The notes beneath the pieces were generated by a model, which saw nothing but the letters and a program-made list of their open reading frames with translations, searched no databases and was not told the DNA's origin. Made by a program: the position numbers and the translations under genes. A stretch of 36,237 nucleotides of DNA from a virus, in IMG/VR virus record IMGVR_UViG_3300021295_000040, positions 1-36,237 of that record; one strand, written 5' to 3'. This document shows, in pieces, positions 2,167 to 36,237 of the stretch (position 1 is its first letter; every line of letters starts with the position of its first letter).

Positions 2167-2179
2167 ATTCAAAACCACC

Positions 2180-13586: not shown

Positions 13587-13883
13587 AATTGTCAGCTCCA
13601 AAGGTGAATTATGAAGGTACATTTTTAAGAAGGAAAAACAAAATGGTTAGACACATTAGTGGCAATATTTTCTAAGTAAAATTCGGTAACATAATTTGTA
13701 AAATTAAATGCACCTTCAATATATACTCTAATAAAAATAGTGTCAGTTGATTTAGTGATAATTATTAGAATATTATTCTATTAAAGAAAATAGGTGGTTT
13801 TAATATTTTTTTAAATCGAAACTATTAATACATATCTTGTGCATAAATATATATCAATTAAAATAAAATTAGGGAGAAATTAT

Positions 13884-16800
13884 ATGAAATATAAAAAGAG
13901 TTTAGTTTTCATTTGTTTGCTGATTTGTTTGTTCACAATTGGTTCTGTGGTGGCTACCGATGCAAACGAAACAAGTGTGGCGAGTGGAGATCAAGAGGAC
14001 TTTCTTCATATGGAAAATTCTTTGACTAATGATTATATTCAACATCAAAATGAAAATGAAGAGGATATTTCTGCTGTGTCTGAAAATTCATTTGATAGTT
14101 TATCAAACAGGATAAAAACATCAAAAGAAGTCAAATTAACTAGTAATTATGCGTATAACGAAGAAGTGGATAAACATTTGTTGTATACTGGTATAAAAAT
14201 TAATAACGCTGTTTCAATTGATGGTCAAAATCATTATATTGATGGTAAAAATAAAATTTGTGCTTTTTATGTTAAATATGATAATGTTACATTAAAGAAT
14301 ATTAGATTTGTTAATTGTGGTTATTCCGCGGTTATGTGGAATGGTGCATCTGGTTCAATAATTAATTGCTCATTTATTAATTGTTCTGCTGGGACTTATG
14401 GTGGAGCCGTTATATGGGATGGTACTTGTGGGAATATAATTAATTCCACATTTATTAATTGTTCTTGTACTAAATATGAATCCTATGGAGGAGCTATTCG
14501 TTGGGAAGGTACAAATGGACATATAATTAATTCTACTTTTATTAATAATACAGCGGGCAAAGGTAATAATATTTATATAGCAAATGGTGTATTTTATCAA
14601 GAAGAGTTAATTTCTAATAATCAAATTAACGAGGGGGTTTATACTTCAACTTCTTTCAAAATTTTGACCACCCTTGATAAAATTTGCGTTCATGTACCTG
14701 GTGTTAAAAATGGGAAATTACAAGTTATTTTTTCAAATAATACTACAATTATCGTTGATATTATAGATGGAATTGCGAAATTAAATTTAATTGAAGGTCA
14801 TTATAATTTGAATATTACTTTTATTAAAGAAAATTATTCTTCTATCTCTGTTTATAATGAATATATAATTGGAAAAGAACTTTGGAAAAATTCATTTAAT
14901 GAAATTTATGACAATCAAATTATAGAAATTACTCAAGATTATATGATAGGTCAATATTCGTACATTCATGACTTTATAGCAATTAATGGAGATAATATTA
15001 TTGTTAATGGTAATGGGCACACTATTAATGTAAATCAATATGGTTTATTTGATATTAATGGAAATAATATAACTTTAAAAAATTTTAATTTCATTAATGT
15101 TTATAGGGATGCTATAAACTGGTATGGAAATAATGGTTCTCTAATTAATTGTAGTTTCTGTAATAGTTCAGCAGATTCAAATGGATTAATATCATGGTTT
15201 GGAAGTAATGGCTTTATATCAAATATCCAATTTATCAATAATACATGCACATCAACATCCCCTATCTTATATTTTAAGGGAAATAATATGAACTGTTTTA
15301 ATGCATCATTTAAAAATAATACGGGAAAGTTAATAGATTCATATTCAACTAACTCTATTTTATATAATATCTCTAGTAATGATGGTTCACTGTATATATG
15401 TGGAAACAATGGTCTTATAAAAAATTGTGAGTTTAATTCAACATTAGTTTCTTTCAGTGGAATTAATTCTAGCATGGAATATTGTAACTTTTTTAATGGA
15501 ATATCTAAAACTAATGATATAAGTGTATTATCAACTGGATCAAATGTCACAATTAAAAATTGTTTGTTTAGTGGTTGTCGTGGAACTGCTTCTCGTGGTG
15601 GAGCAATATCACTAGGAAAATATTCATATATAATAAACTGTACTATAATAAATTGTAATGCAAATAGTGGAAGTGCAATATATTGTAGAGACCATAATAC
15701 AACAATAATTGATACTATTATAGAAAATTGTTCAAGCAAATATGGTACTATTTATAACCTAGTATATGATAATTTGAAGATTATAAACTGTTCTTTTATA
15801 GGTAACTCAGCTAATTATGGTGGAGCAGTCCTTGTTGAACCATATTATGAAGGCAACTTTTTTATTTTTAATTCAACATTTATAAATAATTTTTCTAACA
15901 CTACTTTAATACAATCAACAGGAAATAATAGCTTTATTAGTAATTCTAAATTAATTAATAATACTTGTTTAGATTTAATTAAGGGATTAGATGAAAATAA
16001 TATATTCAATTGTATTTTTGAAGATAATTCTGTAATTATTAAGATCACCACTAAAGAATTTTATTTAAATGGGACATTATCAATTCAATCAATACCGGGC
16101 AGTGTAGAAATTTTTGTAAATGGCAGTCATTTGAGTGGAAATATTGAAAATTATAAAATTGATTTTATAATTCCAAAAAATATCTCTTCAGGAACTCAGA
16201 AGTTAACAATAATTCATAATGGTAATGATCTTTTTAAAACAACCATTGTCGAAAAAATAATTGATATTAAAAAAATTGTTAATTATGATATAGGCATAAA
16301 AAATACTTCTTTAAGTATTGGTGAAAAAATAGATATTATATTGCCTAATGATGCAAAAGGTATTATTAATATTTCAATTGATAATCAAACTTTTTTAGGA
16401 GAAGTGCAATCCGGGCATGCGTATATAGATATTTCTAAATTAAAATCTGGTCTATTTAATGCAAAATTATATTATACCGGAGATAGTTGCTATTCAAATA
16501 AAACAATCGAATCCAAAATTATTCGAGTTTATAAACTAAACACTGATTTATTAATTAATATAACTAATAATAATGTTAATAAAAATATTACATTTACCAT
16601 GGAGCTTCTTAATGATGCCACAGGGAATATTTCTCTCTCTTTGAACAATCATAATTACATCTATAATAATATCCATGGTAGTTTTACGATAGTAACTAAA
16701 AAGTTACCTCAAGGTAATTACACCGCCAAAATTGTGTATTCTGGTAATGATTATTATAAACCTTTATCCTACACTTTAACTTTTGAAGTATTCGGAAGAA

Positions 16801-17885
16801 TCATATTAACTAAAAATGACATTTTAATAAATTTGAATTTAGATAAGGAGAATATTGGACAATTAACTATTCAAATACCAAATAATGCTACAGGTATTTT
16901 ACTTGTAGATATTAATAATCAAAATTATTATGGCAATTTAATAAATGGTATTGTAAATATTTTAGTTCCAAATTTAGTTGATAAAAATTATGCTTTGTCT
17001 ATTAAGTATTTGGGTGATGATAATTACGATGAATTCTTTATTCAAGATACATTAGAAGTTTTTAAAACAATCAAATCTAATGATATGAATATAAATTATA
17101 ATAGTGCTTTAGATTTCCAAGCTACTTTTTATGATAATGAGGGAAATGCATTGTCGAATAAATATGTAATTTTTAAAGTAGATGGCACTGATTATCCAGT
17201 CATCACTTCTTTTAATGGCGTCGCAACATTAAAAGTAGGTTTAATGCCTGGAACATATGAGATTACTTTAATTAATACAGTAACAGATGAAGTTAAAACT
17301 AATACATTAATAATTAATTCTAAGCCTATTGATGAAAAAGATATTGTTATCCCCACTTTACCTAGTTCCTCTAGTGGATCCGTAACTGTAAAATTGCCTA
17401 GCGATGCAACTGGTACTGTCACTTTAAGCATTGGCGGTAAAGACTATAAATTTGATGTTGTCAATGGTGTGGCTAACGTTAAAGTGCCTGATTTGGCCAA
17501 TGCTGCATACTCCTACTCAATCACCTACTCTGGAGATAGTAAATATTCATCATTCACAAAAACAGGCAAGGTAACAGTGAATAAGCCTGCTCCAAAACCT
17601 GTGACAAAAACAACACTGACACTTAAAAAGGTCAAGGTCAAAAGATCTGCTAAAAAACTGGTTATCCAAGCAACATTGAAAATAAATGGTAAAGCTGTCA
17701 AAGGTAAAGTTATTAAATTCAAGTTTAATAAGAAATCCTACAAAGCCAAAACCAATGCCAAAGGTGTTGCAAAAATAACTATTAAAAAATCAGTTCTCAA
17801 AAAACTTAAAAAGGGTAAAAAAGTAACTTACACAGCAACATATAGTAAAGTTACCAAGAAAGTGACTGTTAAAGTTAAAAAGTAG
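13884..17885 (+). CDS. Methanobrevibacter-type adhesin-like surface protein (start probably 13884; track ORF begins 13839)
   Basis: Signal peptide MKYKKSLVFICLLICLFTIGSVVA; tandem beta-helix repeats (IINCSFINCSA..YGGAVIW.G); Ig-like repeats (Y.GD..Y); Lys-rich C-terminal domain (TLTLKKVKVKRSAKKLVIQATLKINGK...VTVKVKK). Confidence 0.88.
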   Translation: MKYKKSLVFICLLICLFTIGSVVATDANETSVASGDQEDFLHMENSLTNDYIQHQNENEEDISAVSENSFDSLSNRIKTSKEVKLTSNYAYNEEVDKHLLYTGIKINNAVSIDGQNHYIDGKNKICAFYVKYDNVTLKNIRFVNCGYSAVMWNGASGSIINCSFINCSAGTYGGAVIWDGTCGNIINSTFINCSCTKYESYGGAIRWEGTNGHIINSTFINNTAGKGNNIYIANGVFYQEELISNNQINEGVYTSTSFKILTTLDKICVHVPGVKNGKLQVIFSNNTTIIVDIIDGIAKLNLIEGHYNLNITFIKENYSSISVYNEYIIGKELWKNSFNEIYDNQIIEITQDYMIGQYSYIHDFIAINGDNIIVNGNGHTINVNQYGLFDINGNNITLKNFNFINVYRDAINWYGNNGSLINCSFCNSSADSNGLISWFGSNGFISNIQFINNTCTSTSPILYFKGNNMNCFNASFKNNTGKLIDSYSTNSILYNISSNDGSLYICGNNGLIKNCEFNSTLVSFSGINSSMEYCNFFNGISKTNDISVLSTGSNVTIKNCLFSGCRGTASRGGAISLGKYSYIINCTIINCNANSGSAIYCRDHNTTIIDTIIENCSSKYGTIYNLVYDNLKIINCSFIGNSANYGGAVLVEPYYEGNFFIFNSTFINNFSNTTLIQSTGNNSFISNSKLINNTCLDLIKGLDENNIFNCIFEDNSVIIKITTKEFYLNGTLSIQSIPGSVEIFVNGSHLSGNIENYKIDFIIPKNISSGTQKLTIIHNGNDLFKTTIVEKIIDIKKIVNYDIGIKNTSLSIGEKIDIILPNDAKGIINISIDNQTFLGEVQSGHAYIDISKLKSGLFNAKLYYTGDSCYSNKTIESKIIRVYKLNTDLLINITNNNVNKNITFTMELLNDATGNISLSLNNHNYIYNNIHGSFTIVTKKLPQGNYTAKIVYSGNDYYKPLSYTLTFEVFGRIILTKNDILINLNLDKENIGQLTIQIPNNATGILLVDINNQNYYGNLINGIVNILVPNLVDKNYALSIKYLGDDNYDEFFIQDTLEVFKTIKSNDMNINYNSALDFQATFYDNEGNALSNKYVIFKVDGTDYPVITSFNGVATLKVGLMPGTYEITLINTVTDEVKTNTLIINSKPIDEKDIVIPTLPSSSSGSVTVKLPSDATGTVTLSIGGKDYKFDVVNGVANVKVPDLANAAYSYSITYSGDSKYSSFTKTGKVTVNKPAPKPVTKTTLTLKKVKVKRSAKKLVIQATLKINGKAVKGKVIKFKFNKKSYKAKTNAKGVAKITIKKSVLKKLKKGKKVTYTATYSKVTKKVTVKVKK

Positions 17886-19314: not shown

Positions 19315-20415
19315 TCAAAATTCTATCCAAGGTAAACCTTTAGCAATTACTTTTTCTTTTAGTTTGTTTAAATCGACTGAAGTTAAATGCTTTATTTTAT
19401 TATTTTCATCTTGGTAACGATATTCATAGCTAAATCCCTGTTTACAAGTTTTACAATTCTTTTTTGTAACTCTATAAATTCCCAAACTCCCTATAGCTTT
19501 ACTAATTCTCAGTTTACTTTCTCGAGTATGATGGATGAATCTTTTTTCCACTTTCTCATTACTTTCTTTTAAAGTAAATTCTGCTTTATCCTCATCAACT
19601 ATGGTCCATTTCAAACCTTTGTCAATTACTTTTTCTTTTAATCTGAGAATATCAACGCTTGAAAGTTCTTTTCTTTTATCGCCTTCATAATACCTATAAA
19701 CATATCTAAATCCTTTTAAACATGTTTCATCTTTAGATTTATTAACACGAAAAAACCCAGTAGGGTTGTTGTTACTACTTATCTTTATTTTATGTTCTTC
19801 TGAGAGTTTTCTTTCATATTTTGGTTTATTTTTATCAAGAAATAATGACCCTAAAGCGTTACGCCCATCATTAATTACCCAATCTAAACCTCTGCTAATA
19901 ACCTCTTTTTTTAATTCCAATAAATCTGTTCGTGATATTTCTACTCTTTTTCCATTTTCGTTATATCCATAAACCCATCTAAAACCATTCAGACAAGTTT
20001 CATCTTTAGCAATAACAACCCGATAAAATCCTGTTGAAGTTTTAGTCTTCTTTCTTATTTCTCGTAAACTTTTGCTCAATTTTTTCTTACTTGATTGAGA
20101 TAGTTTTGGATATTGTCCTCCAGATTCTAAATTGTAACCTTTTTCATCATTATCAAAAGTGCCATATTTTTCAATATAATGTATCTCCAATTCATTCAAG
20201 TCTTCAGCTTCACACAATTCAAGAATTTCGAATTCAAAATTATCTTCACCATATTTGTTCCAGGAATTTTGCAGATAATCGTTTTTATGCATGTTAGAAT
20301 TTAATTCTCTTCTATGCATTCTCCATCTACTAGAAATATCTAAAGATCGTCCAATATACCGTTTACCATTGATTTTATTCCTTATACAATAAATTCCAAT
20401 TATTTTAGAAGTCAT
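19315..20415 (-). CDS. GIY-YIG homing-type endonuclease with three repeated C-terminal modules
   Basis: GIYCIRNKINGKRYIGRS, R..H, E, GYN catalytic motifs, then three NUMOD3-like helices each followed by a G(F/I)(Y/F)RV..C..GF...D...LK..V...GL.W domain. Confidence 0.88.
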   Translation of the reverse strand: MTSKIIGIYCIRNKINGKRYIGRSLDISSRWRMHRRELNSNMHKNDYLQNSWNKYGEDNFEFEILELCEAEDLNELEIHYIEKYGTFDNDEKGYNLESGGQYPKLSQSSKKKLSKSLREIRKKTKTSTGFYRVVIAKDETCLNGFRWVYGYNENGKRVEISRTDLLELKKEVISRGLDWVINDGRNALGSLFLDKNKPKYERKLSEEHKIKISSNNNPTGFFRVNKSKDETCLKGFRYVYRYYEGDKRKELSSVDILRLKEKVIDKGLKWTIVDEDKAEFTLKESNEKVEKRFIHHTRESKLRISKAIGSLGIYRVTKKNCKTCKQGFSYEYRYQDENNKIKHLTSVDLNKLKEKVIAKGLPWIEF

Positions 20416-24618: not shown

Positions 24619-25308
24619 TTACAAATCTTCTTTTCTATAAATGATGCTGGATTCATCACTTCTGCACCAGGAAACAGCACGGTAAGTAACAGGTTGAAGT
24701 ACTGTTTCAATTAAAACTTTCATCACATATTGAGTTAAAATGAAACCTAAAAGCATTACTGGAGGCATGGTTCCAACAAAAGCAATTCCAATAAATAAAA
24801 TTGTATCCACCAATTCTCCACCAACAGTTGAGCCAATGGTACGTAAAAACAGATGCTCACCATTTGTGTAATTTCCAATTACGGTCATCAATCTTGCATT
24901 TACAAACTGACCTACAATGTAACCGCAAAGACTTGCAAAGGTGATTCTTGGAACAAAACCAAACACATAGGCCAAGTGTGGTTGAGCTGTAAAAGTGGTC
25001 GGATCAAATGGCATCATAATACATAAAAGTCCACAAATAACCATCATAACCTTCATACACATTCCTAACAGTGCTGTTTTAATCATGGTCTTTTCACCAA
25101 ACACTTCAGTAATTACATCAGCCACTAAATAACAAACAGGGAACAATATACAACCACATTCGATGGAGAAAAATCCCCAACTACAAACTTTAGTTGCAAG
25201 TAAGTCACTTAAAACTCCAGCAACAGCGAATATAGTAATCAACACAATTTTTTTCTGTGTAAAATTCAATTTCAAATCATTTCTAATATTATAATCATAT
25301 TTTACCAT
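24619..25308 (-). CDS. yhhQ: Queuosine-precursor (preQ0/preQ1) transporter, VUT/YhhQ family
   Basis: Multi-TM 229 aa with GCILFPVCYLVADVITEVFG, PRITFASL..Y.VGQF, RT.GST..GE..DT.LF..IAF.G family motifs. Confidence 0.88.
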   Translation of the reverse strand: MVKYDYNIRNDLKLNFTQKKIVLITIFAVAGVLSDLLATKVCSWGFFSIECGCILFPVCYLVADVITEVFGEKTMIKTALLGMCMKVMMVICGLLCIMMPFDPTTFTAQPHLAYVFGFVPRITFASLCGYIVGQFVNARLMTVIGNYTNGEHLFLRTIGSTVGGELVDTILFIGIAFVGTMPPVMLLGFILTQYVMKVLIETVLQPVTYRAVSWCRSDESSIIYRKEDL

Positions 25309-26050
25309 TTTTTAACCTCTTATTTTTCTCATTCCAATATTTTTCATAATATCTTTGCTTTTTTCTCCAATCAAGTAAACTCAAAACAAGCTTTTCACAA
25401 TAAGTCAAGCTATTTCTGTCAATGTGTTTGCTTTTGTATCTTCCATTAACAGCACTAAACAACCAACTGGCACTATCAACACTATCAAAGGGAACATTAT
25501 TCAAAATGAATTTCCTGGTACCTCCAAGACCATGAATTTTACAATCATAATCATGTGCAATATTTGCAAACTTAATCAAATCATGATCAGGTATACCCTC
25601 AATGGGAAGACAAGATATTGAAACATAATCATAATTGCTGCACATCCTTTTGAACTTTTTAAACCCACGATTCTTGTGCCAAACCGGAATAACTTTATCT
25701 GTTACCTCTTCAATGATTTTTCTCAACTTCAAAACATTCTTAAAACCAATACGGTTGTCAATATCCATTTCAAAATACCCAACAACATTTGAAGTGTCGG
25801 TTTGTTTTATAAAGTTTGAGTAGTTCACAGTAAACTCAGTAAAATCAATATCCTTAGCTGTATGAAATGTATGAGCTCCACTATCTATCAAAATTCTTTC
25901 AGATTTGGATTTGAAAAATAGATAATCCTCATACATCTTCTTTTGCTGAATATAAAAATAGCTGAAAAGATGGTTTATCGGCCTTATATTGGTCTCTTGA
26001 ACATAATTGTGCAAACACTGATGTTCTGAGGCTGCTAAAAAAATGTTCAT
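25295..26050 (-). CDS. dpdA: TGT-fold base-exchange enzyme, viral DpdA-like (start MNIFLA at 26050, ATGA overlap)
   Basis: TGT-like motifs LIDSGAHTF, FEMDID, IPVWH, KIHGLG, FDSVDSASW; adjacent to yhhQ. Confidence 0.75.
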   Translation of the reverse strand: MNIFLAASEHQCLHNYVQETNIRPINHLFSYFYIQQKKMYEDYLFFKSKSERILIDSGAHTFHTAKDIDFTEFTVNYSNFIKQTDTSNVVGYFEMDIDNRIGFKNVLKLRKIIEEVTDKVIPVWHKNRGFKKFKRMCSNYDYVSISCLPIEGIPDHDLIKFANIAHDYDCKIHGLGGTRKFILNNVPFDSVDSASWLFSAVNGRYKSKHIDRNSLTYCEKLVLSLLDWRKKQRYYEKYWNEKNKRLKNGKI

Positions 26051-26712
26051 GAATCTGACATCCTGCAAGTATAACCTTCTTCTACTAATTTATCAAATGC
26101 CTCAGTCATTTCATCTTCACTGTCAAATAATAATGTAATCTCATAAAAACCAATACTGGAATCATCATCGTCATCAAAATCATCATCAAAGGTTTCTCTA
26201 TCAGAAGATTCACTGCTAACGGCTTGTTTTTGAGGGTCTGTAAATTCCATCTTGTCAAGTAAACCTTTGATTTCAATTTCCTCATCAAAACCATCAAAAC
26301 CAGTTAATTCCAAATCAAAATTATTAACTTCCAATTCTTCCAAAACGGAGAATAATTTTTCAGTATCCCATTCACCGCCAATCTTGTTTAAAGTCAAGTT
26401 CAGCGCTTTTTCATGGTCATCAGACTCAACAGTTAATTCGGTATCGGTAAATACCCAACCAATATCACCAAGTCTGATTAAATTCAGCTCATCAAAGATT
26501 TTATTATCTTCAAGATGCTGATCTATTAAAACCTCAAACCTTTGGTGACCTCCAATGATATGGTTGTTTTTAAGGTTGATTACAATAGGGTCCACCAAAC
26601 CAAAAGTCTCTAAGCTATTTCTTAATTTGGTGGACTCGTTTTCAGGCATTATTCTTGGATTATAATCACTAGGGATTAAATCAGTTATTTTTATCTTTTC
26701 TACTTCTATCAT
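26047..26712 (-). CDS. ParB/Srx N-terminal domain protein with acidic linker
   Basis: IKITDLIPSDYNPRIM...LRNSLETFGLVDPIVIN...IIGGHQRFEVL, and LNLTLNKIGGEWD. Confidence 0.85.
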   Translation of the reverse strand: MIEVEKIKITDLIPSDYNPRIMPENESTKLRNSLETFGLVDPIVINLKNNHIIGGHQRFEVLIDQHLEDNKIFDELNLIRLGDIGWVFTDTELTVESDDHEKALNLTLNKIGGEWDTEKLFSVLEELEVNNFDLELTGFDGFDEEIEIKGLLDKMEFTDPQKQAVSSESSDRETFDDDFDDDDDSSIGFYEITLLFDSEDEMTEAFDKLVEEGYTCRMSDS

Positions 26713-26738
26713 TTTTGGCGACTCCGTTTAAATTTTTA

Positions 26739-26787
26739 TTATGTATTTAAATTGCAACAATCATTTGAATTGCAATTATTTTTTCTA
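26739..26787 (-). pseudogene. Decayed duplicate of the radical SAM gene 3' end
   Basis: 26746-26778 is 30/33 identical to 27388-27420; encodes KNNCNSNDCCNLNT* versus KNINYNPNDCCNLNN*. Confidence 0.75.
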
Positions 26788-26859
26788 TAAACCAGTTATA
26801 GTAAAATTAACGTCATTATAAAGTAAAAATTCTTTAAAATTTAATTATATGATTTTTTA

Positions 26860-27354
26860 TCAATTTACATATTTTTCAACAACACATATAGTATCGTGAT
26901 GGCTCCCACCATGACCTACAACAAGTATACATTCTTGCTTGAAACCTCTTTTTTTACCCATTACAATACTATGATAACCGTAAGTAATGATTCGTCCATT
27001 TTTATTCAAAATAAAAGATAATTCATTTTTTATTTTGTTAAATGTAGAACAAATTCTGCCATTATATTTTTCCATAGATTTTCTTAAGCTATAAGGCGGG
27101 TCAAGAATTATTGTGTCGAATTTTACACCTTTTTCTTTACAACACAAAACAAAATCAAATGCTTCCATACAATAATCCGGATTAAATTCATCAGATAAAT
27201 CAACACGAATTTCATTACAATTCAATCTTGTTTTTCCAGCAAATAAATTCAATACTTTGCCTTTACAATACTTTTCAGTCCATTTTTTTAATTTTGGCTG
27301 TTCAAAAGTATATTTTTTAGGCGGTTGCACCATATAATCCATTTTCAATTTCAA
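26860..27354 (-). CDS. Small SAM-dependent amino (N6-adenine-type) DNA methyltransferase
   Basis: Motif I VLNLFAGKT and catalytic motif IV IILDPPY; no obvious target-recognition domain. Confidence 0.8.
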   Translation of the reverse strand: MKLKMDYMVQPPKKYTFEQPKLKKWTEKYCKGKVLNLFAGKTRLNCNEIRVDLSDEFNPDYCMEAFDFVLCCKEKGVKFDTIILDPPYSLRKSMEKYNGRICSTFNKIKNELSFILNKNGRIITYGYHSIVMGKKRGFKQECILVVGHGGSHHDTICVVEKYVN

Positions 27355-27380
27355 ATCTTAACCTCCTTAAAAAATAAATA

Positions 27381-28223
27381 TTAATTGTTTAAATTACAAC
27401 AATCATTTGGATTGTAATTAATGTTCTTTGTAAAATAATCATAATGAGTTTGTACATCATCACAAACAGTTAACTGCTTAAAATCTAATTTAGACAATAC
27501 TTCAAGTTTTTTCTCTAACGGCAAATGACGATAACCTCCAGCTTTAAGAGAATATTGATTAAAATCAATAAAATCGTTTAAATCTTCTTCCAAACTTGGT
27601 TTTGTTCTTAAAAACTCAACAAGACACTTATCAACACCAATATTGTTTATAACATCAAAATCAGCTGTGTCAAATAAAAATGGAGATAATCTCAAAGCTA
27701 CATCAAAACCAAGATTATATAAAATTTCAATTGCATTTCTTCTTCTCTCAAAGCATGGTGCGTTATCTGTTGCAGCCAAAACTTCATTGTCATTTGTTGG
27801 AATTGAAATTTGAATATGTGCTAAATCTTTATCCAAAATATTAATATATTCATCTTCAACAATCAAATCCGATTTTGTAACAATTAGATAATGAATACCT
27901 TTTTCATTAAGTTTTCTAATTGCATTATAAGTATTTCTGTATTTTAACTCAATTGGCTGGAAACAGTCTGTTAGACCACCTAATCTTATAACACTTCCAG
28001 CTGGAATTTTATCGATTGTCCTGTAAACCTGGAGAAGTGGTGCAACCCCAACATCAGCAGGGTTCCAAAGTTTTCTAAAGTCTAAAATTTGTTTTGCATA
28101 GCAATAATTGCAGTTAAAAAAACAGCCCTTACCGTATAAATCAAGTCTTGTTGGATAAAAGCATCTATCACCTTCCGATCCTCCAACGGTTTTATAAAAA
28201 GAATTGTACTTATTCATTTTCAA
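27381..28223 (-). CDS. Radical SAM protein, SplB/photolyase-like family
   Basis: CX3CX2C motif GCFFNCNYCYAK, plus LTDCFQPIE and LIVTKS motifs. Confidence 0.85.
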   Translation of the reverse strand: MKMNKYNSFYKTVGGSEGDRCFYPTRLDLYGKGCFFNCNYCYAKQILDFRKLWNPADVGVAPLLQVYRTIDKIPAGSVIRLGGLTDCFQPIELKYRNTYNAIRKLNEKGIHYLIVTKSDLIVEDEYINILDKDLAHIQISIPTNDNEVLAATDNAPCFERRRNAIEILYNLGFDVALRLSPFLFDTADFDVINNIGVDKCLVEFLRTKPSLEEDLNDFIDFNQYSLKAGGYRHLPLEKKLEVLSKLDFKQLTVCDDVQTHYDYFTKNINYNPNDCCNLNN

Positions 28224-28798: not shown

Positions 28799-29033
28799 CT
28801 AAGCTCTCTTTTGGAATTTCATATTCTTCCCTAATAAGACCTTCAGCTATTTTTACACGATAATTTTCAGGAATGATTTTAACAATTAATGCAGCAGCAC
28901 CAATTACACCAACAGCTATTGACTGATATTTGACAGGTAAAAAACTGATGTCACTTGCTGTAAGACCACTTATGAAAACCAAAATCGCAAATACTACACT
29001 AATCAACCAACTGTATTTTTTAAAACTGTACAT
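28773..29033 (-). CDS. Small two-TM holin-like protein
   Basis: WLISVVFAILVFISGL and IAVGVIGAAALIVKII helices with charged tail. Confidence 0.55.
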   Translation of the reverse strand: MYSFKKYSWLISVVFAILVFISGLTASDISFLPVKYQSIAVGVIGAAALIVKIIPENYRVKIAEGLIREEYEIPKESLDERDEDYV

Positions 29034-29260
29034 TTTTTCATCCTCCAGAAATCCTTTTTCTTTTCTTCGTTTTTGTTATCTTCAAGCATTTCAGTTAATG
29101 TCTTAAATCTTATTCCAGCTGTATATGGGTATGATGATTTGATAACAACACCGCAATTTTTGCAGTAAACTTCCTCATTGTCATCTTTTTCAAATTCACC
29201 TTCATTTTCACATTCAGGACATACCAAGTTTGAATATGTTTGATTACACATTGACTTCAA
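29003..29260 (-). CDS. TFIIB/TFB-type zinc-ribbon protein
   Basis: CPECENEGEFEKDDNEEVYCKNCGVVI matches the TFB N-terminal Zn ribbon; no cyclin repeats. Confidence 0.75.
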   Translation of the reverse strand: MKSMCNQTYSNLVCPECENEGEFEKDDNEEVYCKNCGVVIKSSYPYTAGIRFKTLTEMLEDNKNEEKKKDFWRMKKCTVLKNTVG

Positions 29261-29328: not shown

Positions 29329-30096
29329 TTACAATCCCAATCGTTTCTTTTCATTGCTTATTAGACGTGCTTCGACTTCATGGTCAGTATTTGCATGAGC
29401 GTGAAGATTTGCGCCTCTACTTCCTAAAGCACCTTTTTGAGCTTCACTCATGGTGTCTTTGTATCTTTTGTAATAGTTACGGAAGTTCTGTCGATTTTGT
29501 TCTTCTTTTGCATAATCTTTGCATTTGTTGGAACAATATTTTTTAAAATGAATTGTTTTTGTAAACAAACGTCCACACCAATTGCAGGTTGGCAAAACTT
29601 CAAATATTGTCTCAATAGCTTCTTTAAATGTTAAATCAACACCCCCACGAACAAAATTCACAGGATACACATTATTAAATTGCTGAATTAGATCATTGAA
29701 TTTCTGTATAATTTGATTGTCTTCTTGCAATGGCTGCACAACAACAATTATGTCCATATTCGGAACAAATTTGTTAATTGTCTTAATGAATGATGGTTTA
29801 ACTTCAGGATTTGTGTGAAAAGCGTAGCTGGAGAGAATGCTAGTTTGCCAAATAACAATATCAAAATTGCTAAAGTTTTCATGGTTCCAGTTAATGCTTC
29901 TATCAAGTGCGGCCAGTAGTGCTCTTTCAGAAAATGTCAAATCATAGCTATTCAATATAGACTGCATTATTTCATCTTCAAGTGGAAAAATTGTCTTTAC
30001 AGTATATGATTTTGAGGCTAAATATTCTACAAGTTTTTGTACAATGATGTGGTTTACATTCACGTAAATTCCATCTAATGCAATGTGAAGTGTCAC
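29329..30096 (-). CDS. Degenerate thymidylate-kinase-like domain fused to Zn finger and basic tail
   Basis: IALDGIYVNVNHII replaces the TMK P-loop; ERALLAALDR and IVIWQTSILSSYAF are TMK-like; CNWCGRLF...YCSNKC finger follows. Confidence 0.6.
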   Translation of the reverse strand: MTLHIALDGIYVNVNHIIVQKLVEYLASKSYTVKTIFPLEDEIMQSILNSYDLTFSERALLAALDRSINWNHENFSNFDIVIWQTSILSSYAFHTNPEVKPSFIKTINKFVPNMDIIVVVQPLQEDNQIIQKFNDLIQQFNNVYPVNFVRGGVDLTFKEAIETIFEVLPTCNWCGRLFTKTIHFKKYCSNKCKDYAKEEQNRQNFRNYYKRYKDTMSEAQKGALGSRGANLHAHANTDHEVEARLISNEKKRLGL

Positions 30097-33201: not shown

Positions 33202-33441
33202 GGATAAATATTTTTTTAAATTTTTTATTTTGATTTTTTATTGCAGTATTATGTAATAAATAATAAAGGAGTCAATATTTCTGTAATTTAAATGAATTTT
33301 TTACTTCGTAAATTGCAACGTTTAATGATTGAAGATTTATTAAAGCATTTTGAAAATTTTGTTATACACATATAATAAACATTATATTATGTGTATAACA
33401 AAAATAAATTTGATAATGACTTTTTATTAGAGGGTTTAAAA

Positions 33442-36237
33442 ATGTCAGTTGATGTCGAAAGTGAAGCAATGCTTGAAGAAAAATTCATAGAACAACTGCA
33501 AAGAATGGGCTATGAAAGAATCAAAATAAAAAATGAAGAACAGCTAAATGCTAATTTTAAGAAACAATTGGAAAAATTAAATAAAAAAGAGCTAAATGGA
33601 AGTAGAATAACTGATGAAGAATTTGAAAGAATACTCATTTACCTCGATTCTGGTTCAATTTTCGACAAAGCCGACAAACTAAGAGATGAATATACTATTA
33701 AAAGAGATAATGAACCATCAGTATCAATTAAATTTTTAAATCAAAAAGATTGGTGTAAAAACATATTTCAAGTGTCTAACCAAATTACAATGAGAAGTAA
33801 ACATGAATATCGTTATGATGTAACAATATTGATAAATGGTTTGCCATTGGTCCAGGTTGAACTAAAAAGAAGATCAGTAGCAATATCCGAAGCGTTTAAT
33901 CAAGTAAAAAAATACATGAAATATTCTTATAAAAATTTATTTGGATATATACAAATTTTTATTGTAAGTAATGGTTTAGAAACAAAATATTTTGCTAATA
34001 GAAGACCTGATGATGTGAATTTTGGATACACATTCTATTGGAAAGATAAAAACAATGAAAATATTCATTCACTAGAACAATTTACAGAAGATTTTCTTGA
34101 AAAATGTAATATTGCTAAAATGATTTCTAAATTCATGGTGCTCAATGAATCAACAAAAGAATTAATGGTCCTAAGAGCTTATCAAAAATATGCTGTAGAT
34201 GCAGTATTAGAACAAGCATTAGAAAATAAACGGAACGGATATGTTTACCACACTACTGGAAGTGGTAAAACATTAACTTCATTCAAAGTAAGCCAATTAT
34301 TGTCAGAAGAACCCTCAATTCATAAAGTAATTTTTGTAGTAGATAGGCGGGATTTGAATGACCAAACCAATAAAGAATTCAATAAATTTTGTCCTAAATG
34401 TGTAGGAACTTCAGAACATACTGGAGCATTAGTTAAAAATCTATTGAGTGATAAAAATAAACTAATCACAACAACTATTCAAAAATTAGCAATTGCAGTA
34501 AATAGAAAACACACCAAAAATAAATTAGAAAAAATTAAAGATGAAAATATTATTTTAATCTACGATGAATGTCACAGAAGTCAATTTGGAAAAATGCAGC
34601 AAGACATAAGTAATTTCTTTAAAAATAGTTTATCTTATGGATTTACTGGAACGCCAATCTTTGAAGAAAATGCAAAAGGTTTAAAAACAACCAAAACGAT
34701 TTTTGGAGATAGATTACACACTTATATGATTAAAGATGCAATCGCAGATCATAACGTTTTAGGTTTTTCAATAGATTACTATAATACATTAAAAATGAAA
34801 GAAGGAGTTATTGATGAAGAAGTATATTCCATTAAAATAAATGAAGCCTACGCATCTGAAGAAAGATTAAATTTAATTGTGGACCATATTCTTGATAGTT
34901 ATAATGCAAAAACAAAAAATCGTGAATTTAACGCCATATTCGCTGTTTCCCAAAAAACTAAAGATAATCCATCAGGATTTATACATGATTATTATAAATT
35001 GTTTAAAGAAAAAATAAAAGAAAGAAACATAGATTTTAAACTAGCAACAATTTTTACATATGCAGCTAATGAAAATCTTGATGAAAAAGAAAAACATTCA
35101 CAAGAATTATTAGATGAATATATGGCAGATTATAATAAAATGTTTGGAACAAACTTCAATACAGAAACTATGAGAGAATATCACCGTGATGTTTGTAAAA
35201 GAATGAAGACACGTGAAATAGACTTATTATTAGTAATAAACATGTTTTTAACAGGTTTTGACAGTAAACTTTTAAACACATTGTATGTTGATAAGAACTT
35301 AGAATATCATGGATTATTACAAGCATTTTCAAGAACAAACAGGATTTATAATGCACATAAATCTCATGGAAATATCGTCTGTTACAGGCCGCTGCATAAA
35401 GAAGTAGATAAAGCAATAGCATTATTTTCAAATAATTCCCCTCCAGAAGATATATTCATAGAACCATATAAAAAACTTGTAGAAATATTTAACAATGATT
35501 TAAAAGAATTACACAAGTTAGTTAAATCAGCACAAGAAGTATATAAGCTCCAAAGTGAAAAACAACAATTAAAATTTGTTGTAGGATTTAAAAAATTAAT
35601 GAAAACAAAAAATAAACTAGACACTTATTTAGAATTTACTTTTAATGATTTGGATTTAGAAGAACAAGACTATGAAGATTTTACGGGGGCTTATCTAAAT
35701 ATAAAAGAAAAAGTAGACCAACGAAAAAAGACAAACGGCGGAGGCACCACAATCTTAGATGATATTGATTTTGAATTAGAGTATCTTAAAACCGATAAAA
35801 TCAATGTAGATTATATTTTGGAATTACTTGAAAATATGAATATAACAGACAATCCTAAAAAAGGAAGAGAAAAAATTGTAAAAATGATGGAAAATACTGT
35901 CCATTTAAGGAGTAAAATAAAATTAATGGAAAAGTTCATGGATTCTGAACTTAGACGTATTAAAGAGAATGATTTAAATATAAAAGAAGAATTTGATAAC
36001 TTTGTCAATAACGAGAGGCGACAAGCCATATGTGATTTAATTGATGAAGAACAATTAAGTGAAGAAATAACAAGGGAGTTATTAAGCGAATATGAATTTT
36101 CGGAAAAATTAGATGAACAATTAATCAGAGAAGCTTTTAAAGACAAAACTTTAAAATATAGAGATCGAAAAGCAAAAATTAAAAAAGTTAAAGAAGAAAT
36201 TTTAGACATATTTGATGTGTTCGATTTAAATAGGTGA
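33442..36237 (+). CDS. hsdR: Type I restriction endonuclease subunit R (start probably MSVDVE at 33442; track ORF begins 33391)
   Basis: Nuclease RYDVTILINGLPLVQVELK, Walker A HTTGSGKT, DECHRS, GFTGTP, MFLTGFD and QAFSRTNR helicase motifs. Confidence 0.95.
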   Translation: MSVDVESEAMLEEKFIEQLQRMGYERIKIKNEEQLNANFKKQLEKLNKKELNGSRITDEEFERILIYLDSGSIFDKADKLRDEYTIKRDNEPSVSIKFLNQKDWCKNIFQVSNQITMRSKHEYRYDVTILINGLPLVQVELKRRSVAISEAFNQVKKYMKYSYKNLFGYIQIFIVSNGLETKYFANRRPDDVNFGYTFYWKDKNNENIHSLEQFTEDFLEKCNIAKMISKFMVLNESTKELMVLRAYQKYAVDAVLEQALENKRNGYVYHTTGSGKTLTSFKVSQLLSEEPSIHKVIFVVDRRDLNDQTNKEFNKFCPKCVGTSEHTGALVKNLLSDKNKLITTTIQKLAIAVNRKHTKNKLEKIKDENIILIYDECHRSQFGKMQQDISNFFKNSLSYGFTGTPIFEENAKGLKTTKTIFGDRLHTYMIKDAIADHNVLGFSIDYYNTLKMKEGVIDEEVYSIKINEAYASEERLNLIVDHILDSYNAKTKNREFNAIFAVSQKTKDNPSGFIHDYYKLFKEKIKERNIDFKLATIFTYAANENLDEKEKHSQELLDEYMADYNKMFGTNFNTETMREYHRDVCKRMKTREIDLLLVINMFLTGFDSKLLNTLYVDKNLEYHGLLQAFSRTNRIYNAHKSHGNIVCYRPLHKEVDKAIALFSNNSPPEDIFIEPYKKLVEIFNNDLKELHKLVKSAQEVYKLQSEKQQLKFVVGFKKLMKTKNKLDTYLEFTFNDLDLEEQDYEDFTGAYLNIKEKVDQRKKTNGGGTTILDDIDFELEYLKTDKINVDYILELLENMNITDNPKKGREKIVKMMENTVHLRSKIKLMEKFMDSELRRIKENDLNIKEEFDNFVNNERRQAICDLIDEEQLSEEITRELLSEYEFSEKLDEQLIREAFKDKTLKYRDRKAKIKKVKEEILDIFDVFDLNR

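What the first reader, a model, noticed from the sequence alone, without database searches (positions are those of the whole stretch)
24619..28223. Five-gene DNA-modification cluster: DpdA-like transglycosylase coupled to a preQ0/preQ1 transporter, plus ParB-like, adenine MTase and radical SAM genes
Seen: overlapping rSAM, (MTase), parB-like, TGT-fold and yhhQ-like genes. Established: viral DpdA enzymes (e.g. phage 9g, halovirus HVTV-1) exchange guanine in DNA for 7-deazaguanines that block restriction, and YhhQ imports preQ0/preQ1. Methanogens make preQ0 for tRNA archaeosine. No folE/queD/queE/queC is in the window. Inference: this virus scavenges precursor from the host archaeosine pathway and from the environment to modify its genome. 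The SplB-like radical SAM and ParB-like proteins may further modify the base, possibly into an undescribed derivative.
Basis: partly seen in the sequence, partly recalled or inferred. Interest (0 to 1): 0.8.

Follow-up and report, generated by a model that had tools for sequence, protein, structure and literature searches.

The report
Methanogen virus deazaguanine DNA-modification cassette
A provirus of the gut and rumen methanogen Methanobrevibacter carries a helper protein, a base-swapping enzyme and a base importer that most likely replace guanines in the viral DNA with a scavenged 7-deazaguanine to escape restriction enzymes; this trick is known from bacteriophages, here in a little-studied ParB-partnered form in an archaeal virus.

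Summary
The five co-directional genes exist at the stated coordinates, but they are not one five-gene pathway.

**Core unit.** It has three genes: a small ParB-N protein (26047-26712), a short DpdA-type DNA guanine transglycosylase (25295-26050) and a YhhQ 7-deazaguanine-precursor transporter (24619-25308).
- Across 93 related loci, a ParB-N gene sits directly upstream of the DpdA gene in 81 of 84 loci with enough flank.
- A YhhQ gene follows in 50 of 89.
- Some relatives are fused to YhhQ or to the unrelated precursor transporter QueT.

**Other two genes.**
- The DPPY methyltransferase is a later insertion flanked by a 54-nt repeat. It is absent from the 79-97% identical sister provirus L001 and from all 93 loci.
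- The radical SAM enzyme is closest in fold to spore photoproduct lyase. It accompanies DpdA in about 10% of loci. Its usual neighbour is a ParB-N gene, not DpdA.

**Host.** MAGs carrying sister proviruses encode QueC and arcTGT, so host preQ0 is available.

**Reading.** This is salvage-type deazaguanine modification of viral DNA. ParB most likely acts as an activator, by analogy with DpdB and with ParB-dependent thymine dioxygenases. A role for the radical SAM enzyme on the deazaguanine base is unsupported.

This scan has noted the ParB-DpdA-YhhQ cassette on other DNA, mostly bacterial phages (25 findings). I found no paper on it in a methanogen virus.

The parts
24619..25308 (-). YhhQ/COG1738-family transporter for 7-deazaguanine precursors (preQ0/preQ1 class), 229 aa
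   Evidence: Pfam Vut_1 1.3e-42 (146 bits, cut-off 27.2). NCBIfam TIGR00697 109 bits, cut-off 50.95. Its start overlaps the DpdA stop by 14 nt. A homolog lies downstream of DpdA in 50 of 89 loci.
25295..26050 (-). Short (251 aa) DpdA-type DNA guanine transglycosylase; TGT-superfamily TIM barrel without a C-terminal Zn subdomain
   Evidence: phrog_887 5.1e-34. tblastn to Bacillus phage BCD7 DpdA 2e-21 and to Seurat/PaMx25-type DpdA about 1e-5. AF2 pLDDT 93. VIA Z: Cap10 15.6, ArcTGT 14.9, DpdA 7ui4 14.6, TGT 13.7. D56-S-G-A, H125 and D192-S..W196 are invariant with phage DpdAs. The ATG at 26050 fits the family N-terminus.
26047..26712 (-). Small ParB N-terminal-domain protein (221 aa) with GGHQR motif, acidic linker and a small C-terminal domain; proposed activator/DNA-access partner of DpdA
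   Evidence: phrog_620 3.2e-34; ParB_N 2.6e-4. PADLOC hit to the ParB-N part of an MTase_II model, 6.4e-22. A same-family ORF lies directly upstream of DpdA in 81 of 84 loci, mostly with a 4-nt overlap. 39 of 45 partners hit Pfam ParB_N. Complex prediction with DpdA gave weak support: 0.50 against a best control of 0.00.
26730..26783 (.). Downstream copy of a 54-nt direct repeat (a duplicate of the rSAM gene's 3' end) bracketing the MTase insertion
   Evidence: the repeat finder D1: 26730-26783 and 27372-27425, 80% identity, spacing 642 nt. Also seen in the sequence.
26860..27354 (-). Small DPPY amino-methyltransferase (probably N6-adenine), an inserted moron that is not part of the cassette
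   Evidence: phrog_11619 3.7e-29. Motifs NLFAGKT and DPPY read directly. Absent from the sister provirus L001, where rSAM abuts ParB, and from all 93 DpdA loci. Start is TTG 27354 (SD-like AAGGAGG 6 nt upstream) or ATG 27342.
27372..27425 (.). Upstream copy of the 54-nt direct repeat (the true 3' end of the rSAM gene)
27381..28223 (-). Spore-photoproduct-lyase-like radical SAM enzyme (278-280 aa), a DNA-directed enzyme of unknown substrate that usually neighbours a ParB-N gene
   Evidence: Radical_SAM 3.7e-12; TIGR04470 6e-18; PA0069 family 1.1e-13. AF2 pLDDT 85. Best solved fold is SPL 4fhc, Z 14.8, 233 residues, 3.4 A, next best 12.8; the Foldseek top six are all SPL, about 1e-7. It shares the C-x-Y-C-Y cluster motif with clostridial SPL. 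It occurs in 9 of 93 DpdA loci. Of 80 rSAM loci, 8 carry DpdA and 20 ParB by tblastn, and 21-22 of 89 downstream ORFs are ParB-like.

Best explanation
The functional unit is a three-gene, salvage-type 7-deazaguanine DNA-modification cassette in a myovirus-like Methanobrevibacter provirus.

- YhhQ imports a free 7-deazaguanine base (preQ0 or preQ1 class) from the gut or rumen. This adds to preQ0 that the host makes for tRNA archaeosine.
- The short DpdA-type transglycosylase exchanges guanine in replicated viral dsDNA for that base. It would use the TGT double-displacement chemistry, with Asp56 as general acid/base and Asp192 as nucleophile.
- The small ParB-N protein is translationally coupled to DpdA. 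It acts as a cognate activator or DNA-access factor that lets DpdA work on duplex DNA.
- The modified DNA resists host restriction. A type I HsdR gene lies at the window's right end.
- The SPL-like radical SAM gene is a separate ParB-associated DNA enzyme (repair or modification, substrate unknown).
- The DPPY methyltransferase is an independently inserted, additional protective methylase.

What is shown here: gene identities, fold, conserved catalytic residues, gene linkage and fusions, and host QueC/arcTGT. What is inferred: DNA as the substrate, the identity of the base, the ParB activator role and the anti-restriction outcome.
For: **DpdA identity**
- phrog_887 5.1e-34.
- tblastn hits 143 phage records, including Queuovirinae (Seurat) and BCD7.
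- The BCD7 homolog directly follows FolE, QueC, QueE and QueD; the Seurat homolog follows QueC, QueD and FolE.
- The four best solved folds are all TGT superfamily, including the DNA preQ0 insertase DpdA 7ui4 (Z 14.6, 235 residues, 3.6 A).
- BFVD hits to phage TGT/DpdA reach 3e-24.
- The DSGA motif, His125 and the DS..W motif are invariant with phage DpdAs. They correspond by motif to Asp95, His181 and Asp256 of Salmonella DpdA (PMC10164549).

**Transporter link**
- YhhQ lies downstream in 50 of 89 loci, or 24 of 38 clusters at 70% identity.
- Family members are fused to Vut_1 (P0335, P0036) and to the unrelated QueT transporter (P0249, 9.4e-36).

**ParB link**
- 81 of 84 loci, or 37 of 38 clusters.
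- ATGA overlap with DpdA.
- Weak complex support: ipSAE 0.50 against a best control of 0.00, runs agreeing in at least 51% of contacts, partner pLDDT at least 69. The tool's calibration counts are 58 of 80 solved complexes and 2 of 110 mismatched pairs reaching the mark, but scores of 0.60 or less account for only 7 of those 80 and for both mismatches.
- Published precedents: bacterial DpdA needs the ParB-like ATPase DpdB (PMC10164549); phage 5mYOX176 needs ParB176 only on dsDNA (PMC13229309).

**Host and precedent**
- Methanobrevibacter MAGs with sister proviruses have QueC (about 1e-64) and arcTGT (about 1e-90).
- The isolated Fusobacterium phage phiFN37 has the same ParB|DpdA|x|transporter order.
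Against: - No biochemical or mass-spectrometry data exist for any member of this DpdA clade.
- The protein fails Pfam TGT and has no PADLOC match.
- The Z-score margin over generic TIM barrels is small: 13.7-15.6 against 13.5.
- The top structural hit is Cap10, which modifies a protein, not DNA.
- The residue four positions after the catalytic Asp is His rather than the Phe of DpdA/TGT.
- The ParB-like protein is of the MTase-fusion ParBc type, not the DGQQR DpdB/DndB type.
- ParB-N genes are common at this position in phage genomes, so adjacency could partly reflect a 'privileged' locus.
- Phage DpdA1 enzymes work without a ParB partner (PMC6884629).
- The host already makes preQ0, so the need for an importer is not self-evident.
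Confidence: 0.65

Rival explanations
1. One reading: all five genes cooperate, and the radical SAM enzyme (and/or ParB, MTase) further tailors the inserted deazaguanine into an undescribed derivative.
For: - rSAM-ParB-DpdA-YhhQ is the ancestral order in the Methanobrevibacter clade (window, L001, L014).
- The rSAM recurs near DpdA in several distant bacterial-virus lineages at 44-49% identity.
- Its closest solved fold acts on DNA.
Against: - Only 9 of 93 DpdA loci (4 of 38 clusters) carry the rSAM.
- 72 of 80 rSAM loci lack this DpdA.
- The MTase is in 0 of 93 loci and is a repeat-flanked insertion.
- The rSAM is not close to QueE (Z 9.9) or queuine lyase (Z 8.3), and RaSEA is not among its NCBIfam matches at E 0.01 or better.
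- It keeps the SPL-type C-x-Y-C-Y motif, which points to thymine-type chemistry.
Confidence: 0.08
2. The cassette acts on tRNA or on host queuosine/archaeosine-precursor supply (an auxiliary metabolic gene set), not on viral DNA.
For: - GenBank and PHROG annotate the family as 'queuine tRNA-ribosyltransferase'.
- In one host MAG (G002) the provirus YhhQ is the only Vut_1 gene, so it could confer precursor salvage on the lysogen.
Against: - The protein is a bare barrel of 251 aa. It lacks the C-terminal tRNA-binding and PUA domains of the 663-685 aa host arcTGT frames.
- The virus encodes no tRNA.
- Homologs belong to phage groups with proven DNA modification (PMC6884629).
- A DNA-type ParB partner is nearly universal.
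Confidence: 0.08
3. The TGT-fold protein is a Cap10-like enzyme that attaches a deazaguanine to a protein (for example to interfere with host signalling or defence) rather than to DNA.
For: Cap10 in the Cap10-CdnD complex is the nominally best solved-structure match (Z 15.6; Foldseek 1.9e-5).
Against: - The Z-scores of Cap10, ArcTGT and DpdA are tied within 1 unit.
- There is no QueC-like Cap9 or CD-NTase nearby.
- Sequence-level links go to phage DpdA genes inside preQ0 operons.
Confidence: 0.03
4. On the radical SAM gene only: it is a true spore-photoproduct-lyase-type repair enzyme. It would remove UV thymine dimers formed in densely packed virion DNA during transit outside the anaerobic host, and it is unrelated to base modification.
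For: - SPL is the best fold match, 2 Z units above other radical SAM enzymes.
- The Foldseek top six are all SPL.
- It shares the C-x-Y-C-Y motif and collinear motifs with clostridial SPL.
- A conserved Cys85 follows the conserved Asp. From my memory of the SPL literature, this is where Bacillus-type SPL carries its H-donor Cys.
- Some homologs carry a Pfam SPL hit.
Against: - The hhalign probability to SPL is only 4%.
- The window protein has no Pfam SPL hit.
- The frequent ParB-N partner has no counterpart in SplB biology.
- Extra invariant cysteines (C198, C252, C273-C274) are unexplained.
Confidence: 0.35

Closest known systems
Phage DpdA systems (DpdA1 of Escherichia phages 9g and CAjan/Seurat, Salmonella phage 7-11; Hutinet 2019, PMC6884629; subfamilies DpdA1-4 in PMC10516641)
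   Same: - A TGT-superfamily enzyme that replaces G in phage DNA with 7-deazaguanines after replication.
- DpdA-only phages are already proposed to use host preQ0 or uptake, and some phages are noted to encode YhhQ.
- There is direct BLAST-level similarity, with shared DSGA, His and DS..W residues.
   Different: - About 250 aa, with no Pfam TGT or DUF6610 hit.
- Nearly always preceded by a ParB-N gene (81 of 84), which those papers do not mention (0 occurrences of 'ParB').
- Salvage only, and here in a methanogen virus.
Bacterial Dpd system, DpdA plus the ParB-like ATPase DpdB (Salmonella Montevideo; PMC10164549)
   Same: A transglycosylase that inserts preQ0 into dsDNA only with a ParB-superfamily partner. 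yhhQ is embedded in some dpd clusters (PMC5699537).
   Different: - The partner here is about 170-230 aa, of the GH(T/Q)R ParBc type, not the larger DGQQR DpdB.
- Neither protein matches NCBIfam or PADLOC Dpd models.
- There is no DpdC or DpdD-K restriction side.
- It is a viral counter-defence, not a host defence.
ParB-dependent phage thymine dioxygenases (5mYOX176/ParB176; O'Toole 2026, PMC13229309)
   Same: A small phage ParB homolog without an obvious DNA-binding domain activates a cognate DNA base-modifying enzyme and is needed only on dsDNA. The genes are co-located near the packaging genes.
   Different: The client enzyme is an Fe/2OG dioxygenase acting on thymine, not a transglycosylase. 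No DpdA or radical SAM client is reported there.
Fusobacterium phage phiFN37 (OR492271) and uncultured gut/rumen Bacillota phages
   Same: The same gene order, ParB-like | DpdA | (small ORF) | queuosine precursor transporter, annotated in GenBank. 80 of 93 tree rows form the Bacillota-virus clade.
   Different: These have bacterial hosts. Their ParB partners end in a CPxC zinc-ribbon-like tail instead of the acidic linker and C-terminal domain of the Methanobrevibacter clade. None has been tested.
Haloarchaeal virus systems (HVTV-1 DpdA4 with preQ1; HRTV-29 DpdA only; HCTV-1/16 with YhhQ; PMC8651126, PMC10516641)
   Same: Archaeal tailed viruses with DpdA and/or YhhQ that are proposed to hijack host preQ0.
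   Different: The DpdA subfamily is different (DpdA4 = DUF6610, no hit here). The hosts are halophiles, not methanogens. No ParB coupling is described.
Spore photoproduct lyase SplB (PDB 4fhc)
   Same: Best structural match of the radical SAM protein. It shares the CxxxCxYCY motif and is a DNA-acting radical SAM enzyme.
   Different: Shorter, remote in sequence (hhalign probability 4%), ParB-associated and viral. It has extra conserved cysteines, including a C-terminal DCCNL motif.

Membership tests
DpdA (DNA guanine transglycosylases of the TGT superfamily) | TGT-type (beta/alpha)8 barrel fold | tested here: met
   AF2 pLDDT 93. The top four of 48,161 chains are Cap10, ArcTGT, DpdA 7ui4 and TGT, Z 15.6-13.7; the margin over other TIM barrels (13.5) is small.
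DpdA (DNA guanine transglycosylases of the TGT superfamily) | Sequence homology to phage DpdA proteins | tested here: met
   phrog_887 5.1e-34. tblastn to BCD7 2e-21, phiFN37 4e-18, Seurat 7e-5. Pfam TGT PF01702 gave no hit.
DpdA (DNA guanine transglycosylases of the TGT superfamily) | Catalytic Asp (general acid/base), nucleophile Asp and base-recognising His conserved | tested here: met
   D56, D192 and H125 are invariant across the window protein, its clade and the Seurat, BCD7 and phiFN37 DpdAs. Equivalence to D95, D256 and H181 of 7ui4 rests on motif position, not on a residue-level structural alignment.
DpdA (DNA guanine transglycosylases of the TGT superfamily) | Genomic association with 7-deazaguanine synthesis or uptake genes | tested here: met
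   YhhQ downstream in 50 of 89 loci. Fusions to Vut_1 and QueT. The BCD7 homolog lies in a FolE-QueC-QueE-QueD operon.
DpdA (DNA guanine transglycosylases of the TGT superfamily) | Exchanges guanine in DNA for a 7-deazaguanine | not testable with these tools
   Needs LC-MS/MS of DNA or an in vitro exchange assay.
DpdA4 (archaeal-virus subfamily, Pfam DUF6610 PF20314) | Match to PF20314 | tested here: not met
   No Pfam family at E <= 0.01 for the protein.
DpdB (ParB-like ATPase partner of bacterial DpdA) | ParB/Srx-fold N-terminal NTPase domain next to dpdA | tested here: met
   ParB_N 2.6e-4 for the window protein; 39 of 45 clade partners hit at <= 1e-3. Adjacent to DpdA in 81 of 84 loci.
DpdB (ParB-like ATPase partner of bacterial DpdA) | DGQQR motif, DndB/SspE-like C-terminal domain, sequence membership | tested here: not met
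   The motif is GGHQR / GH(T)R. There is no DpdB/DndB model hit in NCBIfam or PADLOC; the best PADLOC hit is the ParB-N part of an MTase_II model.
DpdB (ParB-like ATPase partner of bacterial DpdA) | Required for DpdA activity; NTP hydrolysis | not testable with these tools
   Only an in silico complex test was possible: weak support, 0.50 against a best control of 0.00.
YhhQ / COG1738 queuosine-precursor transporters | Family HMM above the curated cut-off | tested here: met
   TIGR00697 109 bits (cut-off 50.95); Vut_1 146 bits (cut-off 27.2). The E. coli-type equivalog NF008406 scored only 50 bits against a cut-off of 252.
YhhQ / COG1738 queuosine-precursor transporters | Transports preQ0/preQ1 (or queuine) | not testable with these tools
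   Needs complementation or uptake assays.
Spore photoproduct lyase (SplB, Pfam PF20903) | SPL-like radical SAM fold with a CxxxCxxC cluster and flanking Tyr residues | tested here: met
   4fhc Z 14.8, 233 residues, 3.4 A, next best 12.8. Foldseek top six are all SPL. C32-x3-C36-x-Y38-C39-Y40 matches C-x3-C-x-Y-C-Y of clostridial SPL.
Spore photoproduct lyase (SplB, Pfam PF20903) | Sequence membership (PF20903) | tested here: not met
   The window protein has no PF20903 hit. hhalign against two clostridial SPLs gives probability 4%. A few homologs carry a precomputed PF20903 hit.
N6-adenine DNA methyltransferases | SAM-binding motif I and (D/N)PPY motif IV | tested here: met
   NLFAGKT and DPPY read in the translation; phrog_11619 'DNA methyltransferase' 3.7e-29. 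The target base (N6-A, N4-C or N2-G) is not determined. The only Pfam hit is a weak RsmD-like match, 0.0086.

The most novel reading that the evidence does not exclude
The single small ParB-N protein is a shared dsDNA-access activator for two unrelated enzymes encoded on either side of it: the SPL-like radical SAM enzyme upstream and DpdA downstream. Phage ParB-N proteins would then be general cofactors that open duplex DNA to base-modifying enzymes. The radical SAM enzyme would install a second, oxygen-independent and still undescribed DNA modification. Virion DNA of this methanogen virus would then carry up to three stacked marks: deazaguanine, a radical-SAM product and a methylated base.
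Probability: 0.15. Interest if true: 0.75.

Novelty: new variant of a known kind. Interest (0 to 1): 0.48.

Why it matters
- **A possible first for methanogen viruses.** If confirmed, this would be the first deazaguanine-modified DNA in such a virus among the papers I could search. It would also show that viruses of gut archaea and gut Bacillota draw on the same anti-restriction cassette.
- **A testable rule for this DpdA clade.** About 3,460 50%-identity clusters match the profile in public data. Members of the clade are expected to need a small ParB-N partner on duplex DNA. That would link DpdA/DpdB biology with the recently described ParB-activated thymine dioxygenases.
- **A micronutrient link.** The cassette ties phage DNA protection to the pool of free queuosine precursors in gut and rumen.
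- **Practical consequences.** Such modification could affect restriction-based cloning, nanopore base-calling and host-range prediction for Methanobrevibacter viruses, which are of interest for rumen methane work.

Tried and rejected
- **PDB sequence searches.** Neither the DpdA protein nor its profile gave a meaningful hit. The rSAM profile gave none, even at E 10.
- **PADLOC.** The scan gave no match for DpdA or YhhQ and no DpdB model for ParB.
- **Rfam.** No family reached its gathering score on the whole window, so there is no preQ1 riboswitch or other known RNA.
- **tRNA.** No tRNA genes were found.
- **SplB reference.** TIGR00620 is not in the NCBIfam copy. No SplB was found in five Bacillota MAGs. 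Two clostridial SPLs were then obtained from 22 genomes of G004's taxonomic family (Clostridiaceae by L004's record title), but hhalign to them was weak.
- **Small flanking ORFs.** PHROG and Pfam scans of the small ORFs on both sides of the cassette found no QueF, Gat-QueC, ArcS, DpdC or other tailoring enzyme.
- **Ideas rejected.**
  - That the ParB-like gene and the MTase are the two halves of a split ParB-MTase fusion. The MTase is upstream of ParB, is absent from the sister provirus and is flanked by a repeat.
  - That the rSAM is QueE or RaSEA. QueE is a distant fold match (Z 9.9), and neither family is among the rSAM's NCBIfam matches at E 0.01 or better.
- **Complex prediction.** DpdA with ParB gave only weak support.

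Full report
**Setting**

The window is a complete IMG/VR record classed as a provirus fragment (36,237 bp, CheckV 67%). It encodes a myovirus-like structural module on the minus strand: terminase large subunit, portal, protease, capsid protein, sheath, tape measure and endolysin-like protein. A type I restriction R subunit lies on the plus strand at the right end.

The closest relatives of the genes studied here lie in Methanobrevibacter MAGs from goat gut. L001 is 97% identical for the DpdA gene and 79-91% for its neighbours. The host is therefore a Methanobrevibacter.

**Observation**

Five co-directional minus-strand ORFs occupy 24619-28223.

| Gene | Coordinates | Key evidence |
|---|---|---|
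| YhhQ | 24619-25308 | Vut_1 1.3e-42; TIGR00697 above cut-off |
| DpdA-like | 25295-26050 | No Pfam hit; phrog_887 'queuine tRNA-ribosyltransferase' 5.1e-34 |
| ParB-like | 26047-26712 | phrog_620 3.2e-34; ParB_N 2.6e-4 |
| MTase | 26860-27354 | DPPY motif; phrog_11619 3.7e-29 |
| Radical SAM | 27381-28223 | Radical_SAM 3.7e-12; TIGR04470 6e-18; PA0069 family 1.1e-13 |

ParB/DpdA overlap in ATGA, and DpdA/YhhQ overlap by 14 nt. The other two junctions are gaps of 147 and 26 nt. The window has no QueC, QueD, FolE or canonical TGT.

**The transglycosylase**

- tblastn finds 143 phage records. These include Bacillus phage BCD7 (2e-21), Fusobacterium phage phiFN37 (4e-18) and Queuovirinae such as Seurat, PaMx25 and NP1.
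- In BCD7 the homologous domain begins a gene that directly follows FolE, QueC, QueE and QueD. In Seurat it follows QueC, QueD and FolE.
- The AF2 model is confident (pLDDT 93, pTM 0.91).
- An exhaustive comparison with 48,161 solved chains ranks four TGT-superfamily proteins first, just above generic TIM barrels at 13.5:
  - Cap10, Z 15.6
  - archaeosine TGT, Z 14.9
  - the DNA preQ0 insertase DpdA 7ui4, Z 14.6 (235 residues, 3.6 A)
  - bacterial TGT, Z 13.7
- In the viral structure library the matches are phage 'queuine tRNA-ribosyltransferases', down to 3e-24.
- An alignment with the Seurat, BCD7 and phiFN37 enzymes leaves D56-S-G-A, H125, H173, T178 and D192-S..W196 invariant.
- By motif position these residues are the general acid/base Asp, the base-recognising His and the nucleophile Asp. 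Mutating the two Asp residues abolished activity in Salmonella DpdA (PMC10164549).
- The protein is a bare barrel of 251 aa with no CxCxxC...H zinc motif, by direct reading.
- The profile matches 3,460 50%-identity clusters at E <= 1e-3, and 335 at <= 1e-30.

**Gene linkage**

I collected 93 loci encoding members of this clade: 13 from species-representative genomes and 80 from IMG/VR. I scored their ORFs with HMMs built from the window's proteins.

| Neighbour of DpdA | Loci | Clusters at 70% DpdA identity |
|---|---|---|
| ParB-N ORF directly upstream, same strand | 81 of 84 with flank | 37 of 38 |
| YhhQ downstream | 50 of 89 | 24 of 38 |
| Radical SAM nearby | 9 of 93 | 4 of 38 |
| The MTase | 0 of 93 | not counted |

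- The ParB-N ORF mostly overlaps DpdA by 4 nt. 39 of 45 sampled partners hit Pfam ParB_N.
- Some family members are fused to a Vut_1 domain (P0335, P0036). One is fused to QueT, an unrelated queuosine-precursor transporter (P0249, 9.4e-36).
- Two non-homologous precursor transporters attached to the same enzyme clade is strong evidence that its substrate is an imported 7-deazaguanine.
- A FastTree places the Methanobrevibacter sequences in their own clade of seven (support 100). This clade lies beside a clade of 80 whose named members are Bacillota. One Methanomicrobiales MAG locus nests inside the bacterial clade.

**The ParB-like protein**

- It has the NPR and GGHQR motifs of ParB N-terminal domains, an acidic linker and a small C-terminal domain. 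Bacterial-virus partners end instead in a CPxC motif.
- It is not a DpdB by sequence. There is no NCBIfam or PADLOC DpdB/DndB hit, and the best PADLOC match is the ParB-N portion of a methyltransferase model.
- Two published systems show what such a partner can do:
  - Bacterial DpdA inserts preQ0 only with ATP hydrolysis by the ParB-like DpdB (PMC10164549).
  - The phage thymine dioxygenase 5mYOX176 needs its small cognate ParB only on double-stranded DNA (PMC13229309).
- A complex prediction of DpdA with this ParB gave weak support. The score was 0.50 against a best control of 0.00, the runs agreed in at least 51% of contacts, and the partner's pLDDT was at least 69. In the tool's calibration the mark was reached by 58 of 80 solved complexes and 2 of 110 mismatched pairs, but scores of 0.60 or less account for only 7 of those 80 and for both mismatches.
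- I therefore read ParB as an activator or DNA-access factor, not a base-tailoring enzyme.
- The papers I searched on phage DpdA do not mention a ParB partner.

**The radical SAM enzyme**

- The AF2 model (pLDDT 85) is closest to spore photoproduct lyase: 4fhc, Z 14.8, 233 residues, 3.4 A, with the next best at 12.8. The Foldseek top six are all SPL.
- QueE (Z 9.9) and queuine lyase (Z 8.3) are far lower.
- It shares the C-x3-C-x-Y-C-Y motif with clostridial SPLs, but profile similarity is weak.
- The family is large: 4,107 hits.
- In 80 viral loci holding it, only 8 carry this DpdA. A ParB-like gene is the commonest downstream neighbour: 20 loci by tblastn, and 21-22 of 89 downstream ORFs by PHROG.
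- ParB-N is therefore the hub. The patterns are rSAM-then-ParB, ParB-then-DpdA, and here their union.
- Whether the rSAM repairs SP-type damage or modifies DNA cannot be decided here. A specific role on deazaguanine is unsupported.

**The methyltransferase**

It is bracketed by a 54-nt, 80%-identical direct repeat that duplicates the 3' end of the rSAM gene: 26730-26783 and 27372-27425. It is missing in L001, where rSAM abuts ParB. It is an inserted extra methylase, probably N6-adenine.

**Host supply**

- Two Methanobrevibacter MAGs with sister proviruses encode QueC (about 1e-64) and a 663-685 aa arcTGT frame (about 1e-90). QueD was found in one of them.
- In MAG G002 the provirus YhhQ is the only Vut_1 gene. 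G001 has two more.
- Host preQ0 is thus available, and the importer adds an external source. The base inserted (preQ0 or preQ1) remains open.

**Comparison and novelty**

- The idea that DpdA-only phages use host or imported precursor, and that some phages and haloarchaeal viruses encode YhhQ, is already published (PMC6884629, PMC8651126, PMC5699537).
- The same gene order is annotated in the isolated phage phiFN37.
- This scan has already reported the ParB-DpdA-YhhQ cassette in 25 findings from at least 24 genomes, mostly bacterial phages. It has also reported ParB-partnered SPL-like radical SAM pairs in other phages.
- Relative to the papers I could search, three things are new:
  - the near-obligate ParB-N coupling of this DpdA clade;
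  - its presence in Methanobrevibacter viruses (no relevant paper);
  - the combination with an SPL-like radical SAM gene.
- I class it as a new variant of a known kind, of moderate interest.

Noticed in passing
window 26730-26783 and 27372-27425: A 54-nt direct repeat (80% identical) duplicates the 3' end of the radical SAM gene on both sides of the DPPY methyltransferase gene. The sister provirus L001 lacks the methyltransferase, so it is a recent single-gene insertion.
   Followed up: yes
window 13839-17885 (+): A 1,348-aa protein with Big_3_5 Ig-like and beta-helix domains lies on the opposite strand between the portal and terminase genes. Local GC is about 24-26%. It looks like a Methanobrevibacter adhesin-like protein carried as cargo inside the packaging/head module.
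   Followed up: partly
window 19315-20415 (-): A GIY-YIG homing-endonuclease-like gene (phrog_7168 2.7e-34; Pfam GIY-YIG 2.3e-9) abuts and slightly overlaps the start of the terminase large subunit gene. A related copy lies just downstream of YhhQ in L002.
   Followed up: no
window 33391-36237 (+): A type I restriction enzyme R subunit (HsdR; several Pfam domains at 1e-39 to 1e-56) runs off the right end of the record. It is either host flank or provirus cargo. It is the kind of enzyme the DNA modification would counter.
   Followed up: no
window 29003-29260 (-) and 29329-30096 (-): Upstream of the cassette lie an 85-aa zinc-ribbon protein and a 255-aa protein with a C-terminal HNH-like region. 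The first has weak hits to the TFIIB Zn-ribbon (1.5e-5) and to the Lar restriction-alleviation family (1.2e-3). The second hits phrog_13750 at 1.2e-12. Both are conserved in L001.
   Followed up: no
proteins P0249, P0335, P0036 (metagenomic relatives): DpdA-clade enzymes are fused at the C-terminus to a QueT transporter (P0249) or to YhhQ/Vut_1 domains (P0335, P0036). A soluble DNA enzyme would then be tethered to a membrane importer.
   Followed up: partly
L007:7378-9361 (Methanomicrobiales MAG contig): The cassette occurs in the order YhhQ-DpdA-ParB on a 51% GC contig binned to Methanomicrobiales. Its DpdA nests within the bacterial-virus clade. This is either cross-domain transfer or a binning error.
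   Followed up: no
G002:C72:10991-11473 (host MAG of L002): In this Methanobrevibacter MAG the provirus YhhQ is the only Vut_1-family gene found, so the provirus may give its lysogen a precursor-uptake capacity. The MAG may be incomplete.
   Followed up: partly
window 27381-28223 (-), alignment A2: The radical SAM family has extra invariant cysteines beyond the CxxxCxxC motif (C19, C85, C198, C252, C273-C274) and an invariant C-terminal DCCNL motif. A second metal or cluster site is possible.
   Followed up: no
window 1-2187 (-) and 2180-2938 (-): The truncated first gene ends in a transglutaminase-like segment (Pfam 2.9e-4). The next gene has endolysin-family PHROG hits (4.4e-11). Both are candidate pseudomurein-degrading functions of the virion or lysis system.
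   Followed up: no
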